From the NCBI GenBank assembly GCA_027459725.1, contig DAIDHK010000007.1:261-64260 (forward strand): 64,000 nt of DNA, written 5' to 3'. A program made the translations under genes and the position numbers. Each line of letters opens with the position of its first letter. Position 1 is the first letter of the stretch. Below, in pieces: positions 46,118 through 63,300 of the stretch. Under the pieces are notes generated by a model, which saw only the letters and a list, made by a program, of their open reading frames with translations, had not been told where the DNA came from and made no database searches. The stretch is from Candidatus Levyibacteriota bacterium. GTDB taxonomy: Bacteria > Patescibacteriota > Microgenomatia > Levybacterales > UBA12049.

Positions 46118-46227
46118 AAAAATCACAGGTTGTCAAGTTGACATAAAAGCATCTTCTGATAGAATAGGGTCTCTTCTGCCGAAACATTTGTTGAAATCGT
46201 CTGCTTTTGCTTCTGCCTTAGTAATTT

Positions 46228-46980
46228 ATGAACGATACAAATCAAAAAGTTTCTATTATCCTGCCAGTATATAATGCTCAGGACAACTTAGCAGCCTGTT
46301 TGGACAGCTTGCTCGAGCAGACATATACTGACTTTCAAATTATCGCTGTTGACGACAACTCGAAAGACAAATCCTACGATATACTTCAGGTTTACAAAAA
46401 GCTTGACAAACGCATTCAAATTTATCGAAATGTTAAAACCTATGGCAAAAGTATTACGCTTAACCGTGGACTTACGCACGTTTCCGGCAAATATGTTATA
46501 TTTATGAATACTTCTGACACAGTTACCAAAGATAAAGTAAGAAAGCAAGTTCAATTCTTAGAAGAAAACCCCAAAGTAGTTGCGGTGGGTACACAATGTA
46601 CTTATCTTAATGACCAGCACAGGAGAATTGGTAAAAGCTACTTCCCAACCGAGGCTCATGTTATAAGTCGAACTCTTTTTACCGGCTTTGCCATCCATAA
46701 TGAATCTGTCATGATTAATAGATTTAAATTGCCTAAAGACTTTTTACATTTTTTGCCCGTCCCTAATAAGCGTTTTTCCTTCACTCCCCTATTTATCAAG
46801 TTACTTGGTTACGGTACTATTGCTAATTTTGATCAACAACTCCAGTATCATGTCAAACAGGAAGATCTTTTCTCATTGCAATCCGAACTTATCAGTTATA
46901 TCAAACTTTGGCTGCGAGCCCGCTTTGTCTACGACTTACGATTACCCATCCTTACTCTATTCTACCCACTGGTAAGATAA
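46228..46980 (+). CDS. Glycosyltransferase family 2
   Basis: VSIILPVYNAQDNLAACLDSLLEQTYTDFQIIAVDDNSKDKS, a canonical GT2 N-terminus with a DxD region. Confidence 0.85.
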   Translation: MNDTNQKVSIILPVYNAQDNLAACLDSLLEQTYTDFQIIAVDDNSKDKSYDILQVYKKLDKRIQIYRNVKTYGKSITLNRGLTHVSGKYVIFMNTSDTVTKDKVRKQVQFLEENPKVVAVGTQCTYLNDQHRRIGKSYFPTEAHVISRTLFTGFAIHNESVMINRFKLPKDFLHFLPVPNKRFSFTPLFIKLLGYGTIANFDQQLQYHVKQEDLFSLQSELISYIKLWLRARFVYDLRLPILTLFYPLVR

Positions 46981-47011: not shown

Positions 47012-49264
47012 CTAGTTAGTAGTTAACGACTCAGATGTAGAAAGCTTTTCATCTTTTTTCTCCATCCTATTCTCCTTAACCACATCAGGTTTAACTTCCT
47101 TCATATAGCGCTCACGAGAGCTTTTAATTACCTTCTCCCGATTCTTAGTCCTACTATTAGGTAAAGGCAGTGTATGACACAAAAACGGCGCCTGGGTAAT
47201 ATCATTGATAGCCAGTTTAATAATCGCCTGATGATTTCCCAATGCGAGTAAATCCTCCTGAGTAAACCGCTCACCAAATTCTTTGGCCAGATAAGCAGCA
47301 TCGGTAGCCCCGATTAAAAAAGATAACAATGTTCCAGCATTACCAAAAATGGCCGAACGCACATCTTCTGGAACCTGTGCGATATACTGATTGGCCAGCA
47401 GTAAATTCAACCGGTATTTGCGCGCTTCTGATAATATCTTCACAAAACTGGAGGTAGCAAAGTTCTGGAACTCATCGACATATAAATAAAAATCTCGTCT
47501 TTGCGCTTCTGGTATATTCACCCTATTCATAGCCGCCAGTTGAATTTTGGTAATAATCATCGCACCAAGTAGCGCGGCATTATCCTCACCCAATTTGCCT
47601 TGTGAGAGGTTTAATAAAATAATCTTCCCCTCATTCATAATTTTCTCAATATCAATAGTTGAATGGGGATTTTTGACGATGTTACGAATAACCGTACTGG
47701 AGAGAAATTGACCAACTTTGTTTTGAATCGGACCAATGGCCTCGGTCCTTTGTCTGGGGAGCATTTTCTCAAATTCATTGACCCAGAAACTCTTAATAAC
47801 CGGATCAGTCAATTTCTCCACCGCCCTGGCACGGAAATTCGCATTGGCCAACATTTCGGGTACCATTAATAATGTAGGATTGGGCAGATTAATAACCGTT
47901 AATAATGTATTACGCAGGATATATTCAAGTCGTGGTCCCCATGAAGTGCCATACATTTTCTTAAAGATAGAGACAATACCAGACACCACTAATTCTTTCT
48001 GGGACTCATTAGTAACCTCCAATGGATTTAGCGAAAAGGCATGATGTGAGTCGGAGGGATCAAGATACACTACGTCATTAACCCTAAAGGAAGGGACGAA
48101 ATTCAAAACTTCTTCACATAAATCACCATGTGGATCAACAATACAAAACCCCCTTCTATTTCTCATATCATTGATAGCCATGTTACAAATAAGAGTTGAT
48201 TTTCCAGCCCCTGTCTTACCGATAATATACATATGACGACGTCTGTCTGTCTGTTTGATACCAAAAACTGCTGATTTATTACGAAAATCAGTCCTGGCAA
48301 AGAAATTAATTTCTTCTTTTTCCTCTACCGATTTATTCTCAGCTATCGGCAAATTCTCCGGCGGGTCAGAGAGAATAACTTTGTGCCAGGCAATATTGGG
48401 AATGGCTGCCAGTTTTTCCGTGGGAAAATGGAACATTGTCGCCAGCTCGCGAATATTTAGGATTTGCTTGGGCATGAAAAAGCGACTACGTCTTAACATG
48501 GCCTCCCTCAAGCGATAATTCTGCCACAAATGCGGCTTGCGTAGTAACAACATATTGCCGTGTGGATTGTTAAAGGAGGTAAAACTACCTACTATTTCGG
48601 ACAAAAACTGCTTACTGCGCTCTTTAGTATGGCTATTGACCGCAATTCTTATCGCACTCTTAAAACCATTGCTAGCAATTTTATCACCAATCTGCTTACC
48701 ATAGGGATTTACAGAAACTGCCCCACTAGCATCCTTAGTCTTCTCTGTAGCTGTCGCTCCATTAATCTGCCAGTTATTACCAACCGGCAAGAGCATAAAT
48801 TGAATGCAGGCCTTGTCACCTGGGTTGGATTTAGCCATCACACCTAGTAAAGAAGATAAGGGATCAATGTCCTTAAAATCTGACATTGAGCGTATCGGAT
48901 ACAGATAATTGTAAGCCAGCTTCAACTGACCCAGCGCCACACTTGCTTCAGGTTGCAAAATTCCCGGTAAGTAGTCTTTTGACTTTAAAAGCAGTGATTT
49001 AGGATATTGTGAAACGATCTGACTCTCTACAAACGCCTGATACAGCGCCGGGATGGTGATATAGAAATGTACCAGTTGGTCTTCAATAGTCATCTCCAGA
49101 CTAACCGGGATGCTGCGTCGGAAAAAATAGAACATGGGTACACGAAGACTGGCTAAGGACTCCAAAAACTGCGACATCGCCTCGGGTGTTTCTTTGCTTG
49201 AGCGAGTTGTACGCACTTCAAGAATTACACGATCTGATGAGATAGTAGAGTTTTGTTCTATCAT
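47012..49264 (-). CDS. P-loop ATPase of the VirD4/TraG/TrwB type IV coupling-protein-like (DUF87/TraD-like) family, lacking N-terminal TM helices
   Basis: Walker A YIIGKTGAGKSTLI; Walker B FYLYVDEFQNF. A ~330-aa soluble N-terminal region and a C-terminal K/E-rich tail. Family assignment is from motif spacing only. Confidence 0.5.
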   Translation of the reverse strand: MIEQNSTISSDRVILEVRTTRSSKETPEAMSQFLESLASLRVPMFYFFRRSIPVSLEMTIEDQLVHFYITIPALYQAFVESQIVSQYPKSLLLKSKDYLPGILQPEASVALGQLKLAYNYLYPIRSMSDFKDIDPLSSLLGVMAKSNPGDKACIQFMLLPVGNNWQINGATATEKTKDASGAVSVNPYGKQIGDKIASNGFKSAIRIAVNSHTKERSKQFLSEIVGSFTSFNNPHGNMLLLRKPHLWQNYRLREAMLRRSRFFMPKQILNIRELATMFHFPTEKLAAIPNIAWHKVILSDPPENLPIAENKSVEEKEEINFFARTDFRNKSAVFGIKQTDRRRHMYIIGKTGAGKSTLICNMAINDMRNRRGFCIVDPHGDLCEEVLNFVPSFRVNDVVYLDPSDSHHAFSLNPLEVTNESQKELVVSGIVSIFKKMYGTSWGPRLEYILRNTLLTVINLPNPTLLMVPEMLANANFRARAVEKLTDPVIKSFWVNEFEKMLPRQRTEAIGPIQNKVGQFLSSTVIRNIVKNPHSTIDIEKIMNEGKIILLNLSQGKLGEDNAALLGAMIITKIQLAAMNRVNIPEAQRRDFYLYVDEFQNFATSSFVKILSEARKYRLNLLLANQYIAQVPEDVRSAIFGNAGTLLSFLIGATDAAYLAKEFGERFTQEDLLALGNHQAIIKLAINDITQAPFLCHTLPLPNSRTKNREKVIKSSRERYMKEVKPDVVKENRMEKKDEKLSTSESLTTN

Positions 49265-49330
49265 GCTGCATTTATGATACTTAAATTCCTGCAGCTATGC
49301 AATGTTCCCACACATTTAATTAAGGCCTTT

Positions 49331-50186
49331 TTATTCTACCGACTGGAGACCCAATTTTTTAGCCTCTTCCCGATAAAAAGCTTTAAGATCTTCGAGAGTT
49401 AATAGCTTTACTATTCTTGGTAGAGTGTCAAATTCCTCTACCTTCAGTAAATCAGATAAGACAACAAACGGATCTAACTTCATTTTAAATTTAGCTTCAA
49501 CTCCATACATCAGATCCCAAAAACCAAATTTTGGAAGTAAGAAATACAAATCAACAAAATTTTTTATTGTAGTTCGCTGAGTTATAGTAAACAGTTTATT
49601 CACGGCAATATCATTCAAACTGTCGGTCAAAACACCATTTATCAACCTACTCTCCTCAACTCTTTTATATGGATAAAAACTGAAGTCGACTTTTAATACT
49701 GGTATGCAAGGAAACTGTATTAGGAATACATACATGACCTCATGAAACTCAGACTGAAACGTGAGATGATATTTTTTGCTCCATTCTTCGATTAATCCAA
49801 GTATTGTTTGATTGTTAAATTTTTTTTCCGAAAAGAAATCTAAACCCTCAGAGTACCTATGCTGCAAGTAAAATCCACTCAAAGTAGTATCGCCGGTAAA
49901 ATAAAAGTGGCGAAGATCAGAGTTTTGCTTTGCTTTACTTCATCCAAAATGATTTGCTGTTGTTTGGTAAGGATATGTATTTCCCCCATATAAGTAGCTC
50001 CAAAAGCCTTTTTCGCAAGGGAAACAATTCAAGTTGATCCCAATATTTTTTTACTTCATCCAACTTTATCTTTTCACCTGCAGGGGGACCATAATTAATT
50101 TTTCGCTCAAGAATAAAAATCCTTCCTTTTTCTGTTTTCTCTAATTCTTTTTCATCAAAATCACCCAAGTACTGTGGCATATACAT
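49331..50186 (-). pseudogene. AbiEii/DUF1814-family nucleotidyltransferase (type IV toxin-antitoxin toxin-like), split by a +1/-1 frameshift into 83-aa and 183-aa ORFs
   Basis: The upstream ORF ends ...SFWMK*. The downstream ORF starts at a TTG, and its frame opens 5 nt earlier, reading SKAKQNSDLRHFYFTGDTTLSGFYLQHRYSEGLDFF. This matches the DUF1814 core F.GGTAL....HR.SEDLDF. A one-nucleotide shift near 49925-49940 would fuse the two into a ~285-aa protein. Confidence 0.5.
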
Positions 50187-50617
50187 GAGTATACACTATA
50201 CAATCCACTAGATTCTCCCGGAGTTAAATTTAATACCCCGTTGCTACCGCTGACTCGAAAGTAGTGAACAGAAGGATAAGTGTACTAATATCAAGAATTG
50301 TGAGAATACTTTTCTCTCACATGAGCCTTCACAGTTTTCTTTACTTCCTGCTTAGAAAGGTGCTTGTACGTGGAAACTATGCCCAGCAATGCATTAACTT
50401 GTGATACAAGCTGAGTGATTTGTTGTTCGAGCATACCGTCATTATGATCTTTCACTTAAGCTTAATCAAGTAATACTTATATATAATCTAATTACTCTTT
50501 TCCCCTAAAAATTTCACTAAATACACACCTCGAAGTTAAATGTCCTATATAACAGAGTTAAACTTACTAACAAGCTCTGTCACTTGACAATCAATAATCC
50601 CGTAGTATAATAGAGTT

Positions 50618-51676: not shown

Positions 51677-51751
51677 ACTCTATCCCATATATATATATAG
51701 CCATAGCTTGAGCTTGACAACACACTCACTAACTGGGAAGATGTAGCCCTT

Positions 51752-52303
51752 ATGGGATGGCTAGAAACAACCAGCAGACTGTTAGGCACGGGCGCGCTTT
51801 TAGCCTCGTCTCAGCTAGGCCTGCAGGCGGAAAAGCCAAAACCACCCACTCGCCCAGACAGCTTTGTCAGCTACCAGCTTCGTCCTCACTTACCTCCTAT
51901 CCAGAAAGACCATGTTTCGGTCATTCAACTCATCACCAAACCCGAAATGTATGCCGGTAAAGTTATTAGCCTGACCAATGTGGTGGCGGTGCCAGGCGTT
52001 CAAAACGAGATTACCCACATTTATCCACCTGGCCACCCAGGCCAGCCTCAGCGCATTGTATACAACGAAATAGCTTACCTCACCGACGCTGCCAGCCTCA
52101 AGGCGCAATATCCCTACAGCGAGGCGATTCGCATTCTGAACCTCAATGGTTTGCGTGGTAAGCCCAACTATGAGCCACATCTGGCTGACTACGTCAAATT
52201 CAATATTGAAGCTAAAGTAGATACAGATACAGCCAGCAGCGGTGACGCGGGAAATGGATTGGTCAATTTAACAGCTCTGGCTATCCAACCTGTGGCTAAA
52301 TAG
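51752..52303 (+). CDS. Hypothetical secreted protein encoded in a high-GC (about 52%) island
   Basis: N-terminal signal-like MGWLETTSRLLGTGALLASSQLGLQA. Codon usage is very different from the neighbours (GC-rich third positions). Confidence 0.5.
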   Translation: MGWLETTSRLLGTGALLASSQLGLQAEKPKPPTRPDSFVSYQLRPHLPPIQKDHVSVIQLITKPEMYAGKVISLTNVVAVPGVQNEITHIYPPGHPGQPQRIVYNEIAYLTDAASLKAQYPYSEAIRILNLNGLRGKPNYEPHLADYVKFNIEAKVDTDTASSGDAGNGLVNLTALAIQPVAK

Positions 52304-52461
52304 GCTCAAAACCTTCGTCCTTATAACTTATCTTATATCTGTGATCTAAATCACATTATCCCTACTTATAGCCTCAACTTGACTATTGACAGACACTATA
52401 AGCCATGTTATACTTCTACTCAACATTTGCGATTCTGTCCTATCGGCTCTATCGCTTTTTT

Positions 52462-53154
52462 ATGAAAAAACTTTTATTTACTCTAGGTCTTATATCTTCT
52501 ACCTTGCTAGTAGCAGGAGTTCCTGTTGCATCAGCCAATACGACTAACTGTACTACAAACTATGGGGGAGGTACTACTTGTAATACCACCAATATCACCA
52601 TTAATAAGACTGTACAAAATCCTTCCAATGGAAACTATGTCGACAATCTTGGTGTCAATGATCCTAAATACAACCCAAGTCAAGATGTTAACTTCCAAAT
52701 CACTGTAACCAATACCGGTAATGTAACTCTAAACAATGTAAACGTGAATGATTACTTACCACAGTACACATCTTTTGTGTCTGCTCCTGGCTCACACAAT
52801 GGTAATACCATTACTTATACCATCGGAACTTTAAATCCCGGCGCAACTGATACTGAAACTATCACTGCTCAAGTTGCTGATTCTAGTACTTTACCCAGTG
52901 GTATAACCTGCTTAACCAATCAAGCTACCGCTAATGATAACAATGGTGACCAAGTTTCTGACAATGCACAATTTTGTGCCCAGAATAATGTACTTGGTAC
53001 AACTTCAACATCTACCAGTACAGGACTAACTGTTTATCCTGCACCTAAATTGACTAAAACTCCTCCTACCGGAGCCGATGCAGTCTCACTGCTCGCCCTC
53101 ATTCCCGCAGCTTTTGCTGGATTGACTCTAAGAAAGAAAGCTATAAAAGGATAA
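52462..53154 (+). CDS. Surface protein with DUF11-like conserved-repeat N-domain and C-terminal sortase signal (TPPTG); paralog of 45344..46117
   Basis: Signal MKKLLFTLGLISSTLLVAGVPVASA, then NCTTNYGGGTTCNTTNITINKTVQNP; C-terminus KLTKTPPTGADAVSLLALIPAAFAGLTLRKKAIKG. Confidence 0.7.
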   Translation: MKKLLFTLGLISSTLLVAGVPVASANTTNCTTNYGGGTTCNTTNITINKTVQNPSNGNYVDNLGVNDPKYNPSQDVNFQITVTNTGNVTLNNVNVNDYLPQYTSFVSAPGSHNGNTITYTIGTLNPGATDTETITAQVADSSTLPSGITCLTNQATANDNNGDQVSDNAQFCAQNNVLGTTSTSTSTGLTVYPAPKLTKTPPTGADAVSLLALIPAAFAGLTLRKKAIKG

Positions 53155-53584
53155 TAATTTACGCTCGTCATTGCGAAAGCAGGACGACAAGCCAAAATAG
53201 ACTAATAGCTTGCCCACCACACTCTCGCTCTGACACAACTTATGGTTGGAGAGAGATCTTTGAACCAAATCCCAATCTAAAATCTCTCCTCAATCATAAC
53301 TGATTGAGATTTTGCGTATCTTTCATTCATCAATTTTGCGATGAACATAAAGAACGTAATATAGCTCTTTAACAAAGTATACGAGGAAATCTTTCTATTT
53401 AAGAAAGGAGAATTTTATTTAAATCCCAGTGTCGGGTACGACGTGTATTAGCGTAAGCTTGTCATGTGGTATCCGATACTGGGTAATATTGCCTTTAAAA
53501 AGCAATATTCAGGTCGAACCTAAGTCGGAGCAACATTCACCGGCAGGCAGCTGTGCCACCGGAATCCAGTTTCACGGAGAAAAA

Positions 53585-54818
53585 AGTGAACAAGTATCTG
53601 CGCATCAGCCTTGCGATCGCCATGATCGCACTTCTGATTCTGGGGATCGCAATCCCCACGCACGTGGCGGCTAACTCGACTTACTTTCCCGCTACTTCGG
53701 CGCAAGCCGTCCAGCAGTGGGACGTCGTCGCTATGCAGGGCTCTTGTCTTGCAGTCGTCACCGAAGCCAAAGGCGGAGGTATCGAATTTCACGGGCGTTA
53801 TATAGACGCTCAGAAACTTGGTGCTGATGCCATAGACCTAACCGTTGACTTCGACTACGGTCGAGTCAAGTTTAGAGGCGGTCTCGGCACGCTGATTCCT
53901 TATGGGAACACTCCAACGAGTGATCCCAAGAAACAAGGACTTGGTGTCCGATTCGTTGTGCCCGCGGGGCACCCGATCAACGTCGAAATCAGCGGCGGTT
54001 GCGGTAATTCCGGCTTTGGATTTACTGTGTGGGCAGGAGACCCACAGCAGCCGTGCATACGGTACGTCATGCCTGGACAGAAGGTGTCGACTGCACCTAA
54101 ATGTGTCGCGCCGGTCAACTATTCCAACATCGGCAATGCTAAAGGCAAGCTGACCAACCCTGGGAACCCTATTGGGAACCCCTCATCTAGCTCGAAGCAG
54201 ACAATAACGCAGCAAAACAACTCGTGCAAGTATTATGCCGAGTTTGCATCCTTGTTCAGAAGCCCTTCGGGGCAGATGAGCACCCGGAGCCAGTGGGTTC
54301 CGGAACAGGTGAATGGCTGTGAATTCCATGCCAAGTTGGATCCGAGTGGTCCGACACAACTGGTATTCACGTACCAGAAATCGATGGTCATAAACACACC
54401 GACCTATCCTAATGGTTCGGGTCTTCCTTCGGGAGGACTCGAATACGCAAGCGATGCAACTGTTTACAATGCCACGCCACAAGCGACGGCATCAAACAAC
54501 AGCAATTCTGCAGCTCCGGTCGCGACAGCAACGCCTGTGGCAACGCAGGCGCCTTCTACCGCCAGTACGCTGGCGGTAACAACTGCACTAGCCTGGTGTA
54601 ACAATTCGGCCTGTACGGCCGGAGAGTTCACCCCGCTGGTCGAGTCCAACGGATATACCAATCCCGCCGGACTTAAGTTCACGGCAACCAACACCAACAA
54701 CTGTCCATCATTCACGCTCCCTAGTGGAGCAACGATGGACTACAATGGCGGAAACGGGATAACAGGCCCGACCACAGTAAACAACGTTTGTGTAGCTAGC
54801 CTCCGGCTGGCCGCATAA
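53585..54818 (+). CDS. Hypothetical secreted Cys-containing protein encoded in a high-GC (about 57%) island
   Basis: GTG start preceded by GGAG. Signal peptide VNKYLRISLAIAMIALLILGIAIPTHVAA. Multiple Cys pairs and a T/A/P-rich linker (ATPQATASNNSNSAAPVATATPVATQAPSTAST). The antisense ORFs 53520-53792, 53900-54118, 54183-54482, 54464-54715 and 54740-55225 are judged GC-driven artefacts. Confidence 0.6.
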
Positions 54819-54823
54819 TTCTT

Positions 54824-54839
54824 CCCGCCGTGAGGCGGG
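54824..54839 (+). terminator. GC-rich hairpin immediately after the stop of the 53585 gene (CCCGCC-GTGA-GGCGGG); no U-tract
   Basis: A perfect 6-bp GC stem with a GTGA tetraloop, 6 nt after the TAA at 54816-54818. Confidence 0.4.
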
Positions 54840-55353
54840 GGCGCGTTCCCTATGACGTTTCCCACCAGCGTGGTGGCAGCGTTGGGGATCGCATCACCCC
54901 CGCCTCCGGCAACGGAATTCGGGTGGCTCCGTGATAAGCCAATTCTCTCTTTCGTAGAAAGAGAATCCTGAAGTCGACAAGACTTCACGTTCCAGGTCCG
55001 ACACTTTGCGTTGGACAATTGGCGCGTGAATTCGCGACTACTCCAGGAGTTGGGGATTTTGAAAGCTTTTATAACTTTCCGCCCACCCTCGTATACTTTT
55101 TGTTTTACTGCTAAAGGCAGTACTGATGAGTCTCTGTGATTAGAGAAATCTAAAAACAGTCCCCCTTCGCTATAAGCTACGGAGGGATAAAGACGAAAAC
55201 AAACAGAGCAAGTAAAAAGTAACAATATCTAATACTCAATATTCAATGAATATATAAATTTAAAAAATTCAATTATTTAAAAATTGATTGAATATTGGAT
55301 ATTGAAAATTGTAAATTTGACTAACTATTTTACAAACAAATTAAACAATAATT

Positions 55354-56133
55354 ATGAAAAAACAAATCAAAACCATTTCTTTCGTTATACCAGTCTTTAA
55401 CGAAGAAAAAAGATTGAGTAAAACCTTTAAAGCATTGAACGAATTGCAGCTTCCGGCCAGGTTGAAATTGCAGGATATTATTTTCGTCAATGATGGCTCT
55501 CAAGACAAAACAACCCAAATGATAGAAAAATTTGGCAAAAACAAAAGTTTTAAAGCACAGGTCGTCTTGTTAACTTATCCTACCAATCAAGGTAAGGGCT
55601 ATGCCATCCGACAAGGTATGAAGTATTCTACGGCCGACTATACTCTCTTTTTCGATGCTGATATGTCTACTCCCTTGAGTGAATTGCATAAATTCATGCC
55701 AAGTCTGAAAAAGAACGTTGACGTACTAATTGGTACACGTAAAAATGGTCACTCTACCGTCACCAAACACCAGCCTTTTTTGCGTGAATTCCTAGGCAAA
55801 GGCTTCACCAAAATGACTCAATTCATCTTGGGTGTGAATGTGACTGATTTTACCTGTGGCTTCAAAGCTTTCTCACAAAACGCCAAAGATACTATCTTCT
55901 CACAAACTACCATCAATGGTTGGGGTTATGATGCCGAAGTCTTATTTTTGGCCAGCAAACAAAACTTCTCCATGCAAGAAGTAGCTGTTGCTTGGGCTAA
56001 TGATGAAAGAACCAAAGTAAACATGTTACAAGCTATCCCCCAAACTCTAAAAGAGTTATGGATGATTCGCGCCCAACATAGTTTGTATTCTCATACTCTC
56101 TTCCCTTCATTTAGACCTTTGACGAACACTTAA
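55354..56133 (+). CDS. GT2-family polyprenyl-phosphate glycosyltransferase (Dpm1/ArnC/GtrB-like)
   Basis: ISFVIPVFNEEKRLSKTFKAL...IIFVNDGSQDKTTQMIEKF...FFDADMS (GT2-A fold, DxD), soluble, 259 aa, typical of lipid-linked monosaccharide synthases. Confidence 0.8.
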   Translation: MKKQIKTISFVIPVFNEEKRLSKTFKALNELQLPARLKLQDIIFVNDGSQDKTTQMIEKFGKNKSFKAQVVLLTYPTNQGKGYAIRQGMKYSTADYTLFFDADMSTPLSELHKFMPSLKKNVDVLIGTRKNGHSTVTKHQPFLREFLGKGFTKMTQFILGVNVTDFTCGFKAFSQNAKDTIFSQTTINGWGYDAEVLFLASKQNFSMQEVAVAWANDERTKVNMLQAIPQTLKELWMIRAQHSLYSHTLFPSFRPLTNT

Positions 56134-56152
56134 GAAAGGAGTCATTATATAT

Positions 56153-57466
56153 ATGGCACTTTCTATGCAAAACTCTGATAATTCACTACTCGTCATCGCC
56201 AGCTATCCACCCAAAGATGCAATTCATCATCCGTTGATTGTCGGCGGTGCTTCGTATACCAAAAATACCTTACTTTCCCTACAACGTGTATTAACAGACA
56301 AATCTATAGACTATAAAATTACAGTTCTCGCCGAAAAATTGACTGCTAATCATCACTCTGAACCAAATGAAAAATCTGAAGATATTAATTCATATGAGGA
56401 TAATGGCATTAACGTCAAACGAATTTGGCAACGCAATAACTTTGGGTCATTTTTCTCGTTGATTAACGAAATCAATAAATATAAAAAGACTCAAAAAATT
56501 CTTTTCTCCTTAGAGTTAGCCATGTTCGGCGGACAACTTTCATTGCTTGGCATCATGTTACTTTTGATCTGGTTAAAAATCTCGGGTAAAAAAACTTACA
56601 TCGTTTTACATCAGATCATTGCCAATCTCCAAGATATGGAAGGACATTTGGGCAAAACCTCACCTACCTTAATGACACATATTAATAATTTTGCTTTGCG
56701 ACAGTTTTACCGCTTTGTAGTATTTATAAGTTATAAAATCAATGTCTTTGAACAAACTTTTAAGGATTATTTACACACCTTGGGAGATCCGCAAAAAGTG
56801 GTGGTTATACCACATGGGGTCGAAAAATTTGTCAATTCAGTCACTAAAAAACAGGCCAGAGAAAACCTGCATATAGACCCTAAAAAGAAGGTAATTATGC
56901 TGTTTGGCTTCTTAGCTTGGTATAAAGGTACAGATTGGATTGTCAATCAAATCGACAAACAAAGCATACAAAAAAACAACATTCAGGTCATCATTGCGGG
57001 TGGTCCTAACCCGAACCGTTTGGAACTAGATTTTTATCAAAAATATCTAAAAGATTTAGAACAGAGCGCCAAAGAAAAAAATATCTTAATTACGGGTTTT
57101 GTCCCGGAAAATAAAATAGGTCTGTATTTTCAATCCGCTGATGTAGTACTTTTCCCTTACCGTGCATTGATGTCCAGTAGTGGACCTTTTTCAATAGCGC
57201 TAGCATTTGGTGCTCCACTTTTGCTGGCAGACAAACTCTTGCCATTGACAAAAACTGTAGATTTTCAAACCACACTTACCGACACAAAAATTGCTGAAAA
57301 AGATCTCTTCTTCCCGCTTAACCAGCAAGGTCTAGAGAGAATTATCTCGCAAATAAATGACCAAACATTTCTGGATAAGAGCCATAAATTCGCTCTAACT
57401 CTTGCACAAAAACGCGCATGGAATGCAATTGGACAAATGTATTACGAAACTATTTTTACTAACTAA
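56153..57466 (+). CDS. Glycosyltransferase group 1-like protein with a membrane-spanning insert (paralog of 16286..17428)
   Basis: GFLAWYKGTDWIVNQI and ADVVLFPYRALMSSSGPFSIALAFGAPLL share signature blocks with the 16286 gene. A hydrophobic segment LSLLGIMLLLIWL. Confidence 0.55.
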   Translation: MALSMQNSDNSLLVIASYPPKDAIHHPLIVGGASYTKNTLLSLQRVLTDKSIDYKITVLAEKLTANHHSEPNEKSEDINSYEDNGINVKRIWQRNNFGSFFSLINEINKYKKTQKILFSLELAMFGGQLSLLGIMLLLIWLKISGKKTYIVLHQIIANLQDMEGHLGKTSPTLMTHINNFALRQFYRFVVFISYKINVFEQTFKDYLHTLGDPQKVVVIPHGVEKFVNSVTKKQARENLHIDPKKKVIMLFGFLAWYKGTDWIVNQIDKQSIQKNNIQVIIAGGPNPNRLELDFYQKYLKDLEQSAKEKNILITGFVPENKIGLYFQSADVVLFPYRALMSSSGPFSIALAFGAPLLLADKLLPLTKTVDFQTTLTDTKIAEKDLFFPLNQQGLERIISQINDQTFLDKSHKFALTLAQKRAWNAIGQMYYETIFTN

Positions 57467-57480
57467 ATATTTCTTCACCT

Positions 57481-59583
57481 ATGAAAAGACTACTGGAAAT
57501 AATTATTGTTTTAATCCTAGCTTTAGTAGCCAGTATAGTTTTTACCTATCCGGCCATAACACATATCACCACTCAATATATTGGTGATGGCGGAGATAAT
57601 TATGAATATGCCTCATATATGGGTCTTTTAACCCAGCAAATTCATGATCACCTCATACCACTTAGTCATACCAATTTTTGGCGCTATCCAGTTGGCATTG
57701 ATTTTGCCAGATCATTTGACTCATATTTAACTCTTTTTATTGGTACGGCTTTTACTCTAAGTGTCGGATTACCTCTGTCATATAATCTGACCATTTATGT
57801 TCTTCTGATTCTAAACGGTCTGTTTAGCTATCTGTACTTTAAGAAAATAACCCATTCCCCATTATTAGGTATTATTGGCATGCTTTCCTATGGTTTTTCT
57901 TTTTATGTACTGGCGCGCTCGAACGCACATCCTAACCTCATGTTTGTCGGCGGCTTTCCCCTCTCACTCATTTTTCTACTGCGTTTAATCGAAAGACCAT
58001 CTTTAAAAACGCGCGATTTTCTCTATTTTTTCTTCAGTCTAATATTTATCACGCTTGGCTCTATGCAATATCTACTTTTAATGAGTATATTTTTGGGTAT
58101 TGTACTGTTTACTTCACTGCTTTTTTATTATCCCCAAAGCAAAATTTTCTTTCACAAACTGCTTAACTATCAAAAACAAATCCTTCAAAGTAGCATAACC
58201 TCCGCTTTAGTATTCTTTATTGTTTTTATGCCCCAAATTCTAGCTTTTATACAAGGAAATGTTAATTTTTCCAGCCGTTTAGACACTCTAGCTTTCGCAA
58301 CTCCTGGAATTGATGATTTCTTTCTACCCAATACATACTTGCATCTATTAATCTCTCCCCTGGCTTCGGCTAAATCGAAAATGTCGATTGAAACCATGGT
58401 CTTTTTAGGCTGGATTGAGATGCTGTTTTTTATATTGTTTTTGTTACAAAATAAAATAGCCAAGAAATTTAGACTATATTTACTAACTATCTTTTTAATC
58501 CTGTTTTTACTCGCCCTGGGATATGGTACAGATGATTCATTTTTTCTGTTGCCTTATCATTTCCTGCGCCAGTTTAGTCTTTTCTCTGCAATCGCTGAAA
58601 CCGGCAGGTATTTAGTTGTATTCTATTTGATTTTCCTATCTGCCATCCTATTAGGATTAAGCAAACTTAAAAACCATAAGAAGCTTTACTATTTTCTTGC
58701 TCTAATTTTACTAGGCGGTGTCATTTTGGAAAGAATACCTCTATCATTTAGAACCGTACCAGTTTTGACAGATCAAAAATACATTCAAGTAGTCAAAAAT
58801 ACACCTGCCAAGGCTGTCTTAGATATTCCCATTGATATCTATACCCCGGTCTACAATATTTTGTCACTTGGCTATGACAAGCCGATTGTAAATGGATATT
58901 TTCACTGGTTAGCAGATGGAGCAAGGGAACAATCATTTTTGAGAAATGAAAATCTCTTTCTGCAATTTACTTGTTCCAATCAGGATCCCATACTGAAAGA
59001 TCCTTTGAATTATCCATATACCAGCTATGAAACACAATTAATGCAGACTCTAATAAACAATGGCATAACCACACTTGTCATTCACCGCAATACCAACTAT
59101 CTCTTCTCCAATTGTCGCAATGTACGCATTCGTGTTGACCATCTGATTCCCTTTGAACAACCTCTAAAGCCAAGTATAAATCAGACTGTTTACTCTACTT
59201 CACTTGAGACAAGTCAACCAAGCTTTACTTTTTATTTCCCTTACAGCGGAACTTTTTATCTAGACGGAGCTTTTATCTCCACACGTGGCAAAGGATATTT
59301 TCAAATCCTGCAAAACTACCAACCAGCTACTTTTAAATATGCCTGGAGTGTAGATAACAAGAATAGCTACCAGATCCTGTCTCCCAAAAACACAATTAAA
59401 TTTAAAGTTAACACAGGAGACAACCTGACTATCTATTCCAGTAACCTCATCGATTATACCTATCTTTCTCTTTGGTATCGCTACGCTAAAGATCCTAATA
59501 GTCCCTATATACCATTCTCACCGAAAATACAAAGAATTTACCAGGATAATAATACAATTGTGTATAAAATTAATAGACCTTGA
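57481..59583 (+). CDS. Large polytopic membrane protein, GT-C-type glycosyltransferase-like (YfhO/ArnT/PMT-like architecture)
   Basis: About 12-14 TM helices in the N-terminal 430 aa, followed by a soluble C-terminal domain of ~270 aa. It lies directly downstream of the GT2 polyprenyl-P-sugar synthase and a GT4. No specific catalytic motif was confirmed. Confidence 0.5.
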   Translation: MKRLLEIIIVLILALVASIVFTYPAITHITTQYIGDGGDNYEYASYMGLLTQQIHDHLIPLSHTNFWRYPVGIDFARSFDSYLTLFIGTAFTLSVGLPLSYNLTIYVLLILNGLFSYLYFKKITHSPLLGIIGMLSYGFSFYVLARSNAHPNLMFVGGFPLSLIFLLRLIERPSLKTRDFLYFFFSLIFITLGSMQYLLLMSIFLGIVLFTSLLFYYPQSKIFFHKLLNYQKQILQSSITSALVFFIVFMPQILAFIQGNVNFSSRLDTLAFATPGIDDFFLPNTYLHLLISPLASAKSKMSIETMVFLGWIEMLFFILFLLQNKIAKKFRLYLLTIFLILFLLALGYGTDDSFFLLPYHFLRQFSLFSAIAETGRYLVVFYLIFLSAILLGLSKLKNHKKLYYFLALILLGGVILERIPLSFRTVPVLTDQKYIQVVKNTPAKAVLDIPIDIYTPVYNILSLGYDKPIVNGYFHWLADGAREQSFLRNENLFLQFTCSNQDPILKDPLNYPYTSYETQLMQTLINNGITTLVIHRNTNYLFSNCRNVRIRVDHLIPFEQPLKPSINQTVYSTSLETSQPSFTFYFPYSGTFYLDGAFISTRGKGYFQILQNYQPATFKYAWSVDNKNSYQILSPKNTIKFKVNTGDNLTIYSSNLIDYTYLSLWYRYAKDPNSPYIPFSPKIQRIYQDNNTIVYKINRP

Positions 59584-59614
59584 CTCTATTCTGATTATCT
59601 GATATTCTGAATGT

Positions 59615-59881
59615 ATGAGCAGTATAAGTATAATCCGCGAACGAGGCCAAATAACCATACCTGATAAAATTCGGGCAACATTAGACTGGCTTACTCCCAC
59701 CTCTCCTGTTTCGATATCTATTGTCAACCCGGATGAAATTAGTATCCGTCCTTATCAGAACAAAAAAATAACGGACTGGCAAAAGCTGTGGGCACAGATT
59801 AGAAAATCTCGTGCACTAAAAAGCAAAGGACAAGGTAATCTATCTGCTTTTATTATTGAAGATAGGCAGACAAGAAGATGA
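59615..59881 (+). CDS. AbrB/MazE/SpoVT-type antitoxin
   Basis: RGQITIPDKIRATL swapped-hairpin motif; 88 aa; a 4-nt ATGA overlap with the downstream PIN gene. Confidence 0.7.
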   Translation: MSSISIIRERGQITIPDKIRATLDWLTPTSPVSISIVNPDEISIRPYQNKKITDWQKLWAQIRKSRALKSKGQGNLSAFIIEDRQTRR

Positions 59882-60315
59882 TTAAAAAGATTATTATAGA
59901 TAGTTCAGTTAGTGTTAAGTGGATCAATCAAATTGATGAAGATCTTTTAGAGCAAGCAGATAAAATTCTTTTAGACGTCCAAGCCGAAAAAATAGTCCTT
60001 TTCGCTCCTGAACTCTCAAAATATGAAATTGGTAACGCACTACTAAGAAAACAATTCTCTACACAACATGTAAAAGATACCATACATCTATTGTACCAAT
60101 TGCCTATTACCTTTGTTCCGGAAACAGAAGATCTGGCTAAGCAGACATATATGATTGCACACGAGACTGGAATGACATATTATGATGCAAGCTTTGTAGC
60201 TTTAGCAAAACAAGAAGATGCCTTGTTGGTTACTCATAACGCAAAACATCAAGGCAAAAGTACCACAGTTAAGGTAATTTCACTAAAAGATTACTCCACT
60301 TCAGTCTTGAGCTAA
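59878..60315 (+). CDS. PIN-domain ribonuclease toxin (VapC-like)
   Basis: IIIDSSVSVKW (first acidic residue), ...E..., and the YYDASFVALA motif; 145 aa. Confidence 0.75.
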   Translation: MIKKIIIDSSVSVKWINQIDEDLLEQADKILLDVQAEKIVLFAPELSKYEIGNALLRKQFSTQHVKDTIHLLYQLPITFVPETEDLAKQTYMIAHETGMTYYDASFVALAKQEDALLVTHNAKHQGKSTTVKVISLKDYSTSVLS

Positions 60316-60319
60316 GTAT

Positions 60320-63300
60320 GTGCTAAACTTCTATATATACTTCTTTTTTAAGAATATGCAAACAAACATTAGACGGTTTATTTCTCTTCATTGGCCTATT
60401 ACAACATTAAGCATTCTGATACTTCTCCTCTTTATTACCAACTATATTCCTGGTACCTATCTCACTGGGTGGGACAACTTACATCCGGAATTTAATTTTT
60501 CCGCTAATATACAAAGAGCAATATTCGCCGTCTGGCAGGAATACCAAGGCTTAGGCTTACTGGGCGGTATGGGCCATGCTACAGACATTGTACATGCTGT
60601 ATTTCTGTTTATAGTCTCTTTTGTTCTCCCTCAATCTATCTTGCGCTATATCTGGACTTTCTTAATGCTTTGGCTGGGATGTATAGGAATGTATGTTCTG
60701 CTCAGACGAATAGTTTTTCAATCTCAAACTCAAAGATTATTCCCTTTTCTGGGAGCTTTGTTCTATTTATTAAACCTGGCTACCATTGAAACTTTTTATG
60801 CCCCTTTTGAGGCATTTACGGGTCATTATGCAGCACTTCCCTGGTTAATTTTTGCCTGTCTTAACTACTTTCAACAAAAATCCAAACACAGTCTGGCTCT
60901 GTTAGTCATCATTCTTTTTTTAGCCACCCCTCAAGCATATATCCCCACGTTATTTCTAGTTTTCATACTAGCGTTATCCATGTATTTGTTATTCTGGATG
61001 CTATCCAGCAGAAGCTTTCCCATAATAAGATTACTGAAGCTTTATTTAATCATTATTTTCGTCAACGCCTTCTGGTTGCTGCCTTTTCTCTATTTTGTCT
61101 TCACTAACTCACAAGTAAGTATTTCATCCAAGATTAACCAGATGTCCACCCCCACGATTTATGCCCAAAATCTTGAGTTTGGTAATCTATTTGATTTTGC
61201 CCAATTAAAAGGATTTTGGTTTAACAATGTAGATTACACAAGACATAACAACTTCAATTACATGCTCGAACCCTGGAGAAATTATAGCAATAATCCAATC
61301 TTAATTGCCCTTAGCTTACTTATCTTTGCTCTGGTTGTATTCGGACTGGTAATGGGCTTGAAAAAAGGAAAACAACAGATCTGGGGCTTTACAGGTATTT
61401 TCCTACTGGCTTTAATTGCTCTTGCCAATGACACACCACCTTTTTCCTGGATCAACGCTCTAATTCGCAATCATATCTCATTATTAAACGAAGCTCTCCG
61501 CTTTCCATACACAAAATTCTCTATTCTGGCCGCTTTTATTTTTGCGATCTTTTTTGCTCTGGGAATTCAAGCGATCTATGAATGGCTAAAAACCACCCGC
61601 CAGAAACAATTGTTAATTGTTGCTTCTATAATAACCCTCTTTATCATTTCCTTGCCGATGTTTACCGGAAATTTAATCTATACAAACGAAAAAACATCTA
61701 TTCCCCAAAGTTATTTCCAACTTTTTTCATATATGAGAACACAGGATCCTAACACTCGTATCGCCGATATGCCCCAATACACCTTCTGGGGTTGGAATTT
61801 TTATAACTGGCCAATAAACGGTATAAATCAGGTCGATGGGGGTTCTGGTTTCATCTGGTATGGCATCCAGCAGCCCATTTTAGACCGTGCCTTTGATGTG
61901 TGGTCCAAATATGATGAGAACTATTACTACGAACTCTCACAGGCGCTGTACAGCCAAAATCCTGCTGCATTTAATGACGTTCTGCAGAAATACCAAATCA
62001 ACTGGTTGTTGTGGGACAAAAATATTATTAATCCCTCTTCACCTCAGGCACTCTTTTATCCCCAATTTCAACAATTGCTCACTCAGGAGCCAAATGTTCA
62101 TTTAGTAAAAACATTCGGCAATCTGGAATTGTATAAAGTGGCTCTGACTGACAAACCTAATTCTTTTGTCTTCAGCACCCCTTCTGATCTACCCGCAGTT
62201 AATTTATACACCTGGAGTGACAATGACGTAGCTTATCAAAAGCTGGGTAATTATATATCCGTCAATCACGACAGTTCAGTTAATCTAAAATCACCCGTAA
62301 TAGATTATCCTTACCGTTCGCTTTTTAGCAAAAAAACTTCCAGTGACGAGTCGTTTAAGGTAGCCCAAACCAGTAATTCCCTAATTTTTAAAGCCATCAT
62401 CCCCGCTCATAACCAACCTTTAACCCTCAAAATTCCATCTTTTATTAGTTCTCAGCCTATTGTACCCGTCATTATTACGAGCAGTCCCAGTGCTAAAACA
62501 TTAAACGTTGATATGAAAGTATCTCCACCTGTTGTCTCACTGGATAATAACAATCTATGGAGCTCTAATAGTAATCTGGACTTTAACATCTCATTGTCTT
62601 TACCTATTCCTGCCTCCCAGTCTGGTAATCCACTTGAGATGAAATTAAATGGTGTTGTGAATTATCCCGTGTCTACTACCGACAAAACAGTTAAGACTAC
62701 GTTCTTATCTCTGGAACAAAAAAATATTCTTAGTATCGCTAAAGGGTCTGTAGTCTATGCCAATGTGGTGATTCCTACTTCTTCAATCCATATTGCATCT
62801 GCTGCCTCAAGCTTAATTCCTGCCACCTCACAATCACAAACCTTAACTGTTACTTACCCCAAAATAAGCGATAAATATCTCTCCCTTATACCCGATGTCT
62901 CTAAAGGTTTTACCGGCAGCTGTGACAATTTCCGCAATGGAAATATTTCTATTTTCCCTATTAAACAACCGCAGGCAGATCTGAGAATTCAAAGCAAGAA
63001 CGCAACTGCCTGTACTTCATATTACTCCAGTACTCTTTCACATCGTTTAGGCTACATTGTGTTTATTAACAGCCAGAATATAAGTGGTAGAGGTTTGCAT
63101 TTCTGGATATTAAATGAGGACGAAAAATATGCTCCGCTTGATACATACCTTAAAGGCGATAAGAATCAATTTGAGACATTTATTCTACCTCCCCAGGATC
63201 CGTTTGGTCAGGCATATTCACTGCATTTTGATAATGTCTCCATTGGTAATCAAGTCGCCACCAATCAACTCAATGATGTTGCTATGTACACACTTCCATA

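What the first reader, a model, noticed from the sequence alone, without database searches (positions are those of the whole stretch)
53400..55250. High-GC (about 57%) island encoding a secreted Cys-rich protein inside a ~38% GC genome
The span 53.4-55.2 kb has a sharply different base composition and codon usage from all neighbours, and it spawns many spurious antisense ORFs typical of GC-rich DNA. It encodes a single signal-peptide protein (GTG start with GGAG RBS) that has a T/A/P-rich linker. It is flanked by AT-rich native DNA carrying small palindromes: TCAATCAtaacTGATTGA at 53288-53305, and ATATTCAaTGAATAT near 55240. This is consistent with a recently acquired foreign gene. If the organism is an epibiont of high-GC Actinobacteria (as Saccharibacteria are), host-to-epibiont transfer is an attractive source. 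The alternative is an assembly chimera.
Basis: seen in the sequence. Interest (0 to 1): 0.6.

Follow-up and report, generated by a model that had tools for sequence, protein, structure and literature searches.

The report
Hammerhead-ended cassette with swappable GC-rich gene
The GC-rich island is real, but it is neither a misassembly nor a simple one-off gene transfer: it is the exchangeable cargo gene of a conserved non-coding framework (a structured leader, a matched pair of end sequences and a hammerhead-ribozyme motif) that recurs, always with GC-rich cargo, in other mostly low-GC bacterial genomes.

Summary
Observation confirmed. Window 53450-55100 has 0.51-0.58 GC against 0.28-0.45 elsewhere. 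The 410-aa signal-peptide ORF (53586-54818) has GC3 0.58 against 0.22-0.42 for other genes.

Interpretation partly supported.
- A chimera is rejected. The same layout recurs in six other independent loci: AT-rich structured leader, GC-rich secreted-protein gene, structured trailer, and a type III hammerhead motif in five of them.
- A syntenic relative (L026, flanks 74-86% identical) keeps the leader, the last ~165 nt of the trailer and the hammerhead. Between them it carries a different GC-rich gene (GC3 0.54).
- The cargo is therefore laterally exchanged. No close high-GC donor exists, so Actinobacteria-to-epibiont transfer is unsupported.

New findings.
- A 13-nt inverted repeat brackets the cargo (53374-53386 / 55087-55099). 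It is kept by compensatory change (GTATACGAGG/CCTCGTATAC here, GTATACAAGG/CCTTGTATAC in L026; other sequences in remoter loci).
- A complete hammerhead core lies at 55098-55204, with covarying stem I.

Most likely mechanism (inferred): the ribozyme cuts the transcript just 3' of the cargo, and end-pairing plus structured UTRs stabilise the mRNA. The protein's function is unknown; it has two confidently modelled beta-rich domains with no structural match.

The parts
53240..53305 (+). Leader hairpins 1 and 2. Hairpin 1 is GGAGAGAGAT...ATCTCTCC.
   Evidence: Conserved across five loci, with stems kept by different sequences: L002 GATAGTAG/CTACTATC and CCTGA/TCAGG, L011 CCAGATC/GATCAGG, L009 CCCAA/TTGGG. 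About 90% identical in L026. Windows 53200-53599 fold with z of -2.7 to -6.9.
53360..53373 (+). Conserved leader block TATAGCTCTTTAAC, immediately 5' of the left inverted repeat.
   Evidence: GCTCTTTRA is present in the window, L002, L011, L001 and L026; L009 has a divergent GCACATTAA. Its role (promoter or RNA element) was not resolved.
53374..53386 (+). IR-L: AAAGTATACGAGG, the left arm of the inverted repeat that brackets the cargo.
   Evidence: A perfect 13-nt complement of 55087-55099; 0 of 200 shuffles reach 13 nt. Complementarity is kept with other sequences at the homologous position: L026 GTATACAAGG/CCTTGTATAC, L001 AAAGGTAACATGGAG/CTCCATGTTACCTTT, L009 TTAACAGGGA/TCCCTGTTAA.
53426..53482 (+). 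5'-UTR hairpin 3 (CCAGTGTCGG...CCGATACTGG). This is where GC starts to rise.
   Evidence: The base of the hairpin is conserved in L026 with compensatory differences (GGTGTCGAG...CTCGATACTTGG). Local fold z is -5 to -7.
53510..54924 (+). Exchangeable GC-rich cargo: the proximal 5' UTR, the ORF and the proximal 3' trailer.
   Evidence: No nucleotide similarity to the syntenic relative L026 over window 53398-54939, while both flanks align at 80-86%.
53586..54818 (+). Cargo gene: a 410-aa secreted protein. It has a signal peptide, an N-domain (aa ~31-158), a poorly modelled middle region (~159-320, with a 51-aa module shared with the L026 cargo), a T/A/P linker, and an ~85-aa four-Cys C-domain.
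   Evidence: GC3 0.584. Domain homologs were found. The AlphaFold model has pLDDT ~90 for both end domains. No Pfam, PHROG, PDB-sequence or fold match.
54925..55086 (+). Conserved, GC-rich, structured distal trailer (several hairpins).
   Evidence: 85.6% identical to L026 over 54940-55139, and higher (by eye ~90%) in the trailer part, with a compensatory hairpin change (GAAGTC..GACTTC against GAAGTG..CACTTC). The whole trailer 54819-55105 folds at -120.9 kcal/mol, z = -5.8.
55087..55099 (+). IR-R: CCTCGTATACTTT, the right arm of the bracketing inverted repeat. It abuts and overlaps the hammerhead by 2 nt.
   Evidence: The 15-mer CCCACCCTCGTATAC is identical in L002.
55098..55204 (+). Type III hammerhead ribozyme motif.
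- Stem III: 55099-55104 with 55198-55203.
- Predicted cleavage: after U55105.
- Stem I: TACTGC 55106-55111 with GCAGTA 55117-55122, loop TAAAG.
- Core: CUGAUGA 55123-55129 and GAA 55195-55197.
- Stem II: GUCU/AGAC with a long branched insert.
   Evidence: Rfam RF00008 scores 26.3 bits, E = 0.002-0.26 depending on search space, below the gathering score of 48.5. Every core position is canonical. The motif is also present 3' of the cargo in L002 (26.4 bits) and, by eye, in L009, L010 and L026. Stem I is 100% paired, with 5 of 6 pairs showing double changes.
55216..55318 (.). AT-rich 44-nt inverted repeat between the hammerhead and the GT2 gene.
   Evidence: repeat I1, 77% complementary. It is absent from L026, so it is probably not part of the conserved unit. 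Promoter-like hexamers for the GT2 gene overlap it.

Best explanation
The island is the cargo of a conserved chromosomal cassette framework.

Framework parts (evolving at about the rate of the neighbouring genes): an AT-rich, hairpin-rich leader (~53240-53500); a short inverted repeat whose two arms bracket the cargo (53374-53386 and 55087-99); a GC-rich structured distal trailer (54925-55086); and a type III hammerhead ribozyme (55098-55204).

Cargo (~53510-54924): a GC-rich gene for a modular, secreted, beta-rich protein. Related genomes carry different, only partly homologous, but always GC-rich cargo genes in the same framework. The cargo is therefore exchanged laterally within a pool of such genes, rather than imported once from a high-GC host.

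Proposed working (inferred, not shown):
1. The unit is transcribed from the leader.
2. The hammerhead cleaves after U55105, separating the cargo mRNA from downstream glycosyltransferase transcripts and leaving a 2',3'-cyclic-phosphate 3' end.
3. IR-L pairs with IR-R, 6 nt from that end, and clamps the two ends.
4. Together with the structured UTRs and GC-rich body, this gives a long-lived mRNA for an abundant surface or secreted protein.

The protein probably binds an envelope or partner-cell ligand; this is a weak inference from its architecture and its neighbourhood of cell-envelope glycosylation genes.
For: Shown:
1. GC and codon contrast.
2. Six further loci carry a GC-rich N-domain or related gene with the conserved leader and/or hammerhead. 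Ambient GC is ~0.37-0.42 in four of them, ~0.5 in L001 and unknown for L010. The loci are L002/3/4 (GC 0.52-0.56 in a 0.37 genome), L009, L010, L011, L001 and L026.
3. Rfam Hammerhead_3 hits the same relative position in the window and in L002. It is the window's best hit that does not overlap a tRNA.
4. Stem I covaries: 100% paired, 5 of 6 pairs with double changes, 0 of 500 shuffles reach the observed score. The stem I and core sequence is shared with bona fide phage type II hammerheads.
5. The inverted repeat is kept by compensatory change, including a single G:C to A:T swap in the close relative L026.
6. In L026 the flanks align at 74-86% but the cargo does not. Its 330-aa product shares only a 51-aa module with the window protein, and its GC3 is 0.54 against 0.25-0.39 for neighbours.
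7. Leaders and trailers are unusually structured: z of -3 to -8 in the window, L002 and L009.
8. DUF11 neighbours are 45% identical between hosts, against 36% for the cassette N-domains. With DUF11 adjacency in three distant loci, this argues for long residence of the framework.

Published context: bacterial hammerheads flanking single genes are thought to process transcripts, and U15.1-A16.1 variants still cleave (PMC3088659).
Against: - Both full hammerhead hits score about 26 bits, well below Rfam's gathering score of 48.5. The L026 motif was not reported at E <= 1 and has a bulged stem II.
- L002 has the less active U15.1-A16.1 variant, and L001 has no hammerhead at all.
- The cleavage triplet here is UUU, which is not a preferred one.
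- No promoter could be assigned consistently, so the position of the 5' end relative to IR-L is unknown.
- All inverted-repeat arms are perfect Watson-Crick with no G-U pairs, so DNA-level recognition is equally possible. The repeat is not significant by length alone in L002 and L009.
- No 5'UTR-3'UTR complementarity extends beyond the short repeat.
- Strong folding of the coding region is seen in the window (z = -11.6 over 1 kb, 20 shuffles) but not in L002 or L009, so 'GC for RNA structure' is not general.
- Why the cargo stays GC-rich is unexplained.
- Only seven loci are known. Motif scans of metagenome and viral collections found no further cassettes, and the genome-collection motif scan returned only L002's own contig.
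Confidence: 0.6

Rival explanations
1. One-off recent horizontal transfer of a single gene from a high-GC organism (for example an actinobacterial host) into native AT-rich DNA.
For: Codon usage and CpG content are typical of a ~55% GC genome. C-domain relatives occur mostly in proteins with high-GC-like amino-acid composition. One relative (P0008) is conversely a low-GC gene inside a high-GC contig, which shows the domain crosses GC boundaries. The cargo differs between relatives.
Against: - No close donor homolog anywhere: only self in 5.8 billion proteins, and at most 51% identity (mostly 32-45%) over single domains in 1.84 billion representatives. There are no plasmid or phage hits.
- The same family with the same GC contrast sits in the same conserved framework in six other loci.
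- Part of the GC-rich span (54925-55086) is framework conserved with L026, not imported cargo.
- There is no tRNA, integrase or direct repeat at the borders.
Confidence: 0.12
2. The inverted repeat and conserved flanks act at the DNA level: as recombination sites for cassette exchange or inversion (integron-, shufflon- or inverton-like phase or antigenic variation of a surface protein). The hammerhead would then be incidental or only a transcript insulator.
For: The repeat arms are perfect Watson-Crick and co-vary as recombinase-site pairs would. The left arm lies ~12 nt outside the left break in homology with L026, but the right arm lies ~150 nt outside the right break. The cargo encodes variable, modular secreted proteins.
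Against: - No integrase, invertase or transposase was found by Pfam among the ten large ORFs scanned between 38 and 64 kb, or in the called genes of L002 and L026.
- All seven loci have the cargo in the same orientation.
- No attC-like, TR/VR or direct repeats were found.
- Conserved structured sequence extends well outside and inside the repeat, with RNA-type compensatory changes in hairpins.
Confidence: 0.2
3. Assembly chimera: a high-GC contig fragment wrongly joined into a low-GC genome.
For: Sharp GC steps occur at both ends. A 91%-identical relative's contig (L025) breaks ~300 nt to the right of the cassette.
Against: - The GC transitions lie within elements conserved in independent assemblies from four sources.
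- L002/3/4 give the same junctions in three samples.
- The inverted-repeat arms on either side of the island are complementary and co-vary.
Confidence: 0.02
4. The hammerhead-like motif is an inactive relic or a chance resemblance, and the unit is simply a fast-evolving surface-protein gene with long structured UTRs.
For: Scores are below the gathering threshold. There is no Rfam hit in L026, the motif is absent in L001, and the U-A 15.1/16.1 variant occurs in L002.
Against: - The full canonical core is present in the window.
- The core and three stems are retained at the same position in five loci, while stem I changes by compensatory pairs even between close relatives.
- Low scores are largely due to large stem II inserts (51 and 22 nt).
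Confidence: 0.15

Closest known systems
Bacterial and phage hammerhead ribozymes that flank individual genes (Perreault et al. 2011, PMC3088659; Rfam RF00008 and related models)
   Same: The catalytic core and three-helix junction are the same. The stem I sequence and loop (UACNNN-UWAAG-NNNGUA followed by CUGAUGAGUC) is shared with phage type II hammerheads found here. The position just 3' of a single gene fits the proposed transcript-processing role.
   Different: Here the ribozyme is type III with a very long branched stem II. It is single rather than paired or tripled, and it is not in a recognisable prophage. It is coupled to a conserved leader, a covarying long-range inverted repeat and a GC-rich exchangeable cargo. 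It scores below the family's gathering threshold.
Genomic islands and single-gene horizontal acquisitions detected by atypical GC and codon usage
   Same: Atypical GC, GC3 and CpG content; a gene with no close relatives; different content at the same site in a relative.
   Different: There are no mobility genes, tRNA target or direct repeats. The atypical composition is a recurring property of a gene family inside a conserved host-resident framework in several genomes. Part of the GC-rich span is conserved framework.
Integron gene cassettes and other cassette-exchange loci
   Same: A fixed platform with exchangeable single-gene cargo whose composition differs from the host, and imperfectly symmetric sequences at the cargo borders.
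   Different: No integrase, attI or attC was found. There is a single cassette rather than an array. The cargo genes all belong to related modular families. The flanks look like structured RNA and include a ribozyme.
Stabilising 5' UTR hairpins of highly expressed surface-protein mRNAs (for example S-layer genes and ompA). This comparison rests on my own knowledge and was not tested here.
   Same: A long, hairpin-rich leader upstream of a signal-peptide protein gene.
   Different: The addition of a ribozyme-defined 3' end and 5'-3' end complementarity. Expression level is unknown.

Membership tests
Hammerhead ribozyme, type III (Rfam RF00008) | Conserved catalytic core: C3-U4-G5-A6-N7-G8-A9, G12-A13-A14, the G10.1-C11.1 and A15.1-U16.1 pairs, and H17 at the cleavage site | tested here: met
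   In the window, CUGAUGA is at 55123-55129, GUC..GAC closes stem II, GAA-A is at 55195-55198, U55104 pairs with A55198, and H17 is U55105. L002 instead has the U15.1-A16.1 variant or a 1-nt bulge, a natural variant reported to cleave less well.
Hammerhead ribozyme, type III (Rfam RF00008) | Three helices around the core, with stems I and II closed by loops and stem III open | tested here: met
   alignment: stem III has 6 standard pairs plus one mismatched terminal pair, stem I has 6 bp with a 5-nt loop, and stem II is closed with a 51-nt insert. Stem I is 100% paired across 5 sequences, with 5 of 6 pairs showing double changes.
Hammerhead ribozyme, type III (Rfam RF00008) | Score at or above the curated gathering threshold (48.5 bits) | tested here: not met
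   26.3 bits in the window and 26.4 bits in L002. There was no hit at E <= 1 in L026.
Hammerhead ribozyme, type III (Rfam RF00008) | Site-specific self-cleavage | not testable with these tools
   This needs in vitro transcription or RNA end mapping.
Hammerhead ribozyme, type III (Rfam RF00008) | Tertiary contact between stem I and stem II loops, needed for fast cleavage | tested here: inconclusive
   By eye, no obvious complement of the stem I loop (UAAAG / UUAAG) was seen in the stem II inserts of the window or L002. No formal search was done.
Horizontally acquired genomic island | Composition and codon usage deviating from the host genome | tested here: met
Horizontally acquired genomic island | An identifiable donor-lineage homolog of high identity | tested here: not met
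   only self plus distant single-domain hits.
Horizontally acquired genomic island | Mobility hallmarks at the borders (tRNA, integrase or transposase, direct repeats) | tested here: not met
   The nearest tRNAs are at 40.5-40.8 kb. No flanking direct repeats were found, and there is no recombinase among the neighbours.
Horizontally acquired genomic island | Presence or absence polymorphism among close relatives | tested here: inconclusive
   L026 has a different GC-rich cargo at the same site, not an empty site. L025 does not reach the site.
Integron gene cassette | An IntI integrase with attI, and attC recombination sites bounding the cassettes | tested here: not met
   No integrase domain was found in the neighbours scanned, and there is no cassette array or repeated attC-like element.
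Diversity-generating retroelement target | A template/variable repeat pair and a reverse transcriptase nearby | tested here: not met
   No repeat >= 14 nt links the ORF to another region within 50-58 kb. No RT was seen in Pfam scans of the neighbours.
Invertible DNA segment (inverton) | Inverted repeats flanking a segment found in both orientations, with an invertase | tested here: inconclusive
   Inverted repeats are present. All seven loci have one orientation and no invertase was seen. Population reads were not available.

The most novel reading that the evidence does not exclude
A previously undescribed cassette system of low-GC (possibly CPR-type) bacteria. In it, a host-resident RNA framework (structured leader, covarying end-clamp and hammerhead ribozyme) serves as a dedicated landing and expression site for a circulating pool of GC-rich genes that encode modular secreted proteins. 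Ribozyme cleavage and end-pairing might do more than process the mRNA: they could, for example, yield a clamped or circularisable RNA involved in the exchange itself, or in the maintenance of the GC-rich composition.
Probability: 0.15. Interest if true: 0.85.

Novelty: new variant of a known kind. Interest (0 to 1): 0.68.

Why it matters
1. It cautions against reading a GC island as simple host-to-epibiont transfer or as misassembly. Here the atypical composition is a heritable property of a cargo class at a conserved site.

2. It gives a concrete genomic context in which a bacterial hammerhead ribozyme has an assignable job. The ribozyme is tied to one gene, to a covarying long-range pairing and to structured UTRs. 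The biological roles of most bacterial hammerheads are still unknown, and this arrangement is directly testable.

3. It identifies two uncharacterised extracellular domain families, and a locus where secreted proteins are swapped between related small-genome bacteria. These are candidates for surface or partner-interaction factors.

4. A gene class that stays at GC3 ~0.55-0.6 in genomes with GC3 ~0.3 is an unexplained compositional phenomenon.

Tried and rejected
- Protein relatives: a word-indexed search found only the gene itself. The N-domain profile found four relatives. The C-domain profile found none, although the exhaustive search had found about 27.
- More cassettes by DNA motif:
  - The genome collection returned only L002's own contig.
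  - The metagenome scan with the leader motif gave four chance matches.
  - Viral scans gave nothing or chance coding matches.
  - One viral scan found genuine phage type II hammerheads that share stem I.
- Extended 5'UTR-3'UTR duplex or rod-like fold: duplex energies were not consistently better than shuffles (z -2.6, 0.0, -5.2, -1.1), so this was rejected. Only the short inverted repeat is conserved.
- Conserved small ORF in the trailer: none found.
- DGR, integron, transposon direct repeats: none found.
- Second ribozyme in the leader: nothing in Rfam, and no CUGAUGA core conserved there.
- Consistent sigma-70 promoter in the leader: not found.
- Paralogous DUF11-GT2 pair at 45.3-47.0 kb as an 'empty site': too divergent to use (31% and 24% identity).
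- The apparent 6.5-kb ORF-free region at 0.5-7.1 kb is a giant minus-strand ORF running off the window.
- Organism identity could not be established. Exact look-ups gave no names.
Full report
**1. The observation**

Sliding-window GC rises from about 0.37-0.39 to 0.51-0.58 between roughly 53450 and 55100. It then falls to 0.26. No other 1-kb bin of the 64-kb window exceeds 0.453.

One long ORF fills the island (53553-54818). The best start is GTG 53586, 7 nt after GGAG. This start yields a classical signal peptide and matches the MVNK... start of a homolog.

GC3 is 0.584, against 0.22-0.42 for 39 other ORFs. The gene uses NCG and CTG codons, never uses TTA, and has CpG o/e of 1.08 against 0.71. 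This is a different mutational signature, not translational selection.

**2. The protein**

There is no Pfam, PHROG, PDB-sequence, plasmid or phage match. A word-indexed search of 5.8 billion proteins returned only the gene itself. The exhaustive representative search found 31 distant relatives, which split the protein into modules:
- An N-domain (aa ~4-178), shared with P0003, P0010, P0012, P0025 and later P0033.
- A C-terminal domain of ~85 aa with four Cys, found singly or repeated in many proteins whose composition looks high-GC.

AlphaFold models both end domains at pLDDT ~90 and leaves the middle unmodelled. Foldseek finds nothing significant in PDB or BFVD. The function stays unknown. 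The architecture (signal peptide, beta-rich domains, T/A/P linker) and the neighbourhood (DUF11 surface protein; GT2, GT1 and GT-C glycosyltransferases) suggest an extracellular binding protein.

**3. The island is one instance of a recurrent unit**

I fetched the contigs that encode the N-domain relatives.
- P0025 sits in a 0.37-GC genome as a 0.52-0.56 GC island. It was assembled identically from three samples (L002-L004).
- P0012 (GC ~0.64) follows AT-rich DNA and a DUF11 gene, as in the window (L009).
- P0003 lies on a contig that also carries a DUF11 gene 45% identical to the window's (L001).
- P0010 and P0033 are on short contigs (L011, L010).

An Rfam scan of the island flagged a type III hammerhead at 55098-55204, exactly at the right GC edge (26.3 bits). 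The same model hit the same relative position in L002 (26.4 bits). It is the window's best hit that does not overlap a tRNA.

The window copy has every canonical core nucleotide. L009 and L010 show the stem I / CUGAUGAG part before their contigs end.

Stem I is kept by different sequences: TACTGC/GCAGTA, TACACG/CGTGTA, TTACGC/GCGTAA and GTCGCC/GGCGGC. On an alignment that also includes two phage type II hammerheads sharing the same stem I and core, pairing is 100%. Five of six pairs show double changes, and no shuffle reaches the observed score.

**4. Framework anatomy**

The 5' flanks of the window, L002, L011, L009 and L001 align. They share:
- Two hairpins whose stems covary.
- A block GCTCTTTRA.
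- Immediately after that block, a short segment that is the perfect complement of a segment just 5' of the hammerhead. The window has 13 nt (53374-53386 / 55087-55099), L001 has 15 nt of unrelated sequence, L009 has 10 nt of yet another sequence, and L002 has the window's 8-nt core.

By length alone the repeat is significant in the window and in L001 (0 of 200 shuffles) but not in L002 or L009. Its constant position makes the case in those two.

Leaders and trailers fold far better than shuffles: z of -3 to -8 in the window, L002 and L009. The coding region is unusually structured only in the window (z = -11.6 over 1 kb) and in parts of L010. It is not structured in L002 or L009.

**5. The decisive comparison**

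The window's DUF11 protein belongs to a 90% cluster with a member on an 18.8-kb NCBI contig. That locus (L026) is syntenic:
- L026 886-2551 aligns to window 51710-53397 at 80%.
- L026 4118-4317 aligns to window 54940-55139 at 85.6%.
- L026 4375-8565 aligns to window 55353-59566 at 74.5%.
- The ~1.55 kb in between has no nucleotide similarity.

L026 carries a different 330-aa signal-peptide gene there. Its GC3 is 0.54, against 0.25-0.39 for its neighbours. It shares only a 51-aa module (43% identity) with the window protein.

The framework is retained: the leader at about 90%, the distal trailer with a compensatory hairpin change, and a hammerhead with stem I changed to TTCCGA/TCGGAA.

The bracketing repeat shows a single compensatory substitution. 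The window has GTATACGAGG / CCTCGTATAC; L026 has GTATACAAGG / CCTTGTATAC.

This has three consequences:
- The framework is host-resident and under selection.
- The cargo has been replaced.
- Part of the 'island' (54925-55086) is conserved framework, not imported DNA.

Rfam did not report the L026 hammerhead at E <= 1. Its stem II has a bulge next to the core.

**6.

Chimera: rejected. See the independent assemblies and the co-varying arms on both sides of the island.

'Recently acquired foreign gene': half right. The cargo is exchangeable and compositionally foreign. However, no high-GC donor is detectable. All cargos at this framework are GC-rich in genomes of lower GC: L026, L002, L009, L011 and L001. 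L010's host GC is unknown. The framework has been associated with DUF11 genes across hosts whose DUF11 proteins are only 45% identical.

C-domain genes cross GC boundaries in both directions. P0008 is a 0.38-GC gene in a 0.55-0.65 GC contig. P0006 is a mildly GC-elevated gene next to GT-C and GT2 genes in a 0.32-GC genome.

The Actinobacteria-to-epibiont idea could not be tested, because the organism is unidentified.

**7. Mechanism (inferred)**

Published work proposes that bacterial hammerheads flanking single genes process long transcripts, and reports that U15.1-A16.1 variants still cleave (PMC3088659).

Here, cleavage after U55105 would free the cargo mRNA from the downstream glycosyltransferase genes, leaving a cyclic-phosphate 3' end 6 nt beyond IR-R. 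Pairing of IR-R with IR-L would clamp the ends. With the structured leader and trailer, this predicts a very stable mRNA.

Not shown: ribozyme activity, the transcription start, and whether the repeat acts in RNA or in DNA.

A DNA-level role (recombination or inversion sites) is the main rival. The arms are perfect Watson-Crick, and the left arm lies close to the left homology break; the right arm lies ~150 nt outside the right break. Against this rival, no recombinase was found and no alternative orientation was seen.

Why the cargo remains GC-rich is unexplained. Possible reasons are a high-GC reservoir, selection on the RNA, or biased gene conversion at an exchange hotspot.

**8. Novelty and score**

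Hammerheads next to bacterial genes, and GC islands, are each known. New here, as far as my searches show, is their combination with a conserved leader, a covarying long-range clamp and an exchangeable GC-rich cargo. No paper pairs hammerheads with CPR or Patescibacteria.

I rate it a new variant of a known kind, with interest 0.68.

Noticed in passing
window 51752-52303: A 183-aa ORF with no Pfam match is a second compositional outlier (GC 0.51, GC3 0.52). Its ortholog in the syntenic relative L026 (928-1485, 185 aa) has GC3 of only 0.38, although the DNA aligns at ~80%. No leader or hammerhead framework was seen around it.
   Followed up: partly
L005 643-1251 (also L006, L007): The reverse situation: a C-domain gene (P0008, 202 aa) has GC 0.38 and is embedded between genes of GC 0.55-0.65 in a high-GC contig, with no cassette framework. 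The C-domain family therefore crosses GC boundaries in both directions.
   Followed up: partly
window 53622 versus 53586; L026 4151-4354: There are likely annotation errors in public records. The NCBI-sourced product (P0001, 398 aa) starts at ATG 53622 and truncates the signal peptide. The 67-aa 'gene' called in L026 overlaps the conserved trailer and hammerhead and is probably spurious.
   Followed up: partly
L022 7926-7952, L023 533-559, L024 286-312 (IMG/VR contigs): These are genuine-looking type II hammerheads just after stop codons in phage contigs (GGACGAAAC-hairpin-GUC|UACNGG-UUAAG-CCNGUA-CUGAUGAGUCC). They share stem I, its loop and the core with the window's type III motif.
   Followed up: partly
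window 1-7100, minus strand: There is no listed ORF >= 100 aa between 507 and 7068, because a giant minus-strand ORF (>= 2368 aa, starting VMKDLSLSKESVQKL...) runs off the left end of the window.
   Followed up: yes
window 53586-54585: The first 1 kb of the coding region folds at -407 kcal/mol against -334 +/- 6 for shuffles (z = -11.6, 20 shuffles). By eye, many hairpins have UUCG or UACG loops. This is exceptional for an mRNA and is not shared by the L002 or L009 cargo.
   Followed up: partly
L025 (ENA k141_2099558), equivalent to window 55504-61809: A relative that is 86-91% identical over the aligned blocks is syntenic on the right side, but its contig begins inside the GT2 gene, ~300 nt right of the hammerhead. 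It could not show whether that strain has the cassette. The break may reflect strain variation there.
   Followed up: partly
window 47012-49882 and 59878-60315: The neighbourhood encodes a VirD4/TrwB-like coupling ATPase (750 aa), an AbiEii-family toxin (183 aa) and a PIN-domain protein (145 aa). A 736-nt intergenic gap at 49883-50617 was not examined further.
   Followed up: no
window 45278-46980 and 52405-56133: There are two DUF11-then-GT2 gene arrangements. The DUF11 proteins end in a PPTG-type sorting-signal-like motif followed by a hydrophobic tail. The two pairs are only 31% and 24% identical, so the first pair is not an empty-site control.
   Followed up: yes
L020 4001-5149: C-domain protein P0006 (382 aa) has GC 0.40-0.51 in a 0.32-GC genome. 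It lies next to GT-C(AftD-like) and GT2 genes, as in the window's neighbourhood. It ends with an ordinary terminator and has no hammerhead.
   Followed up: partly
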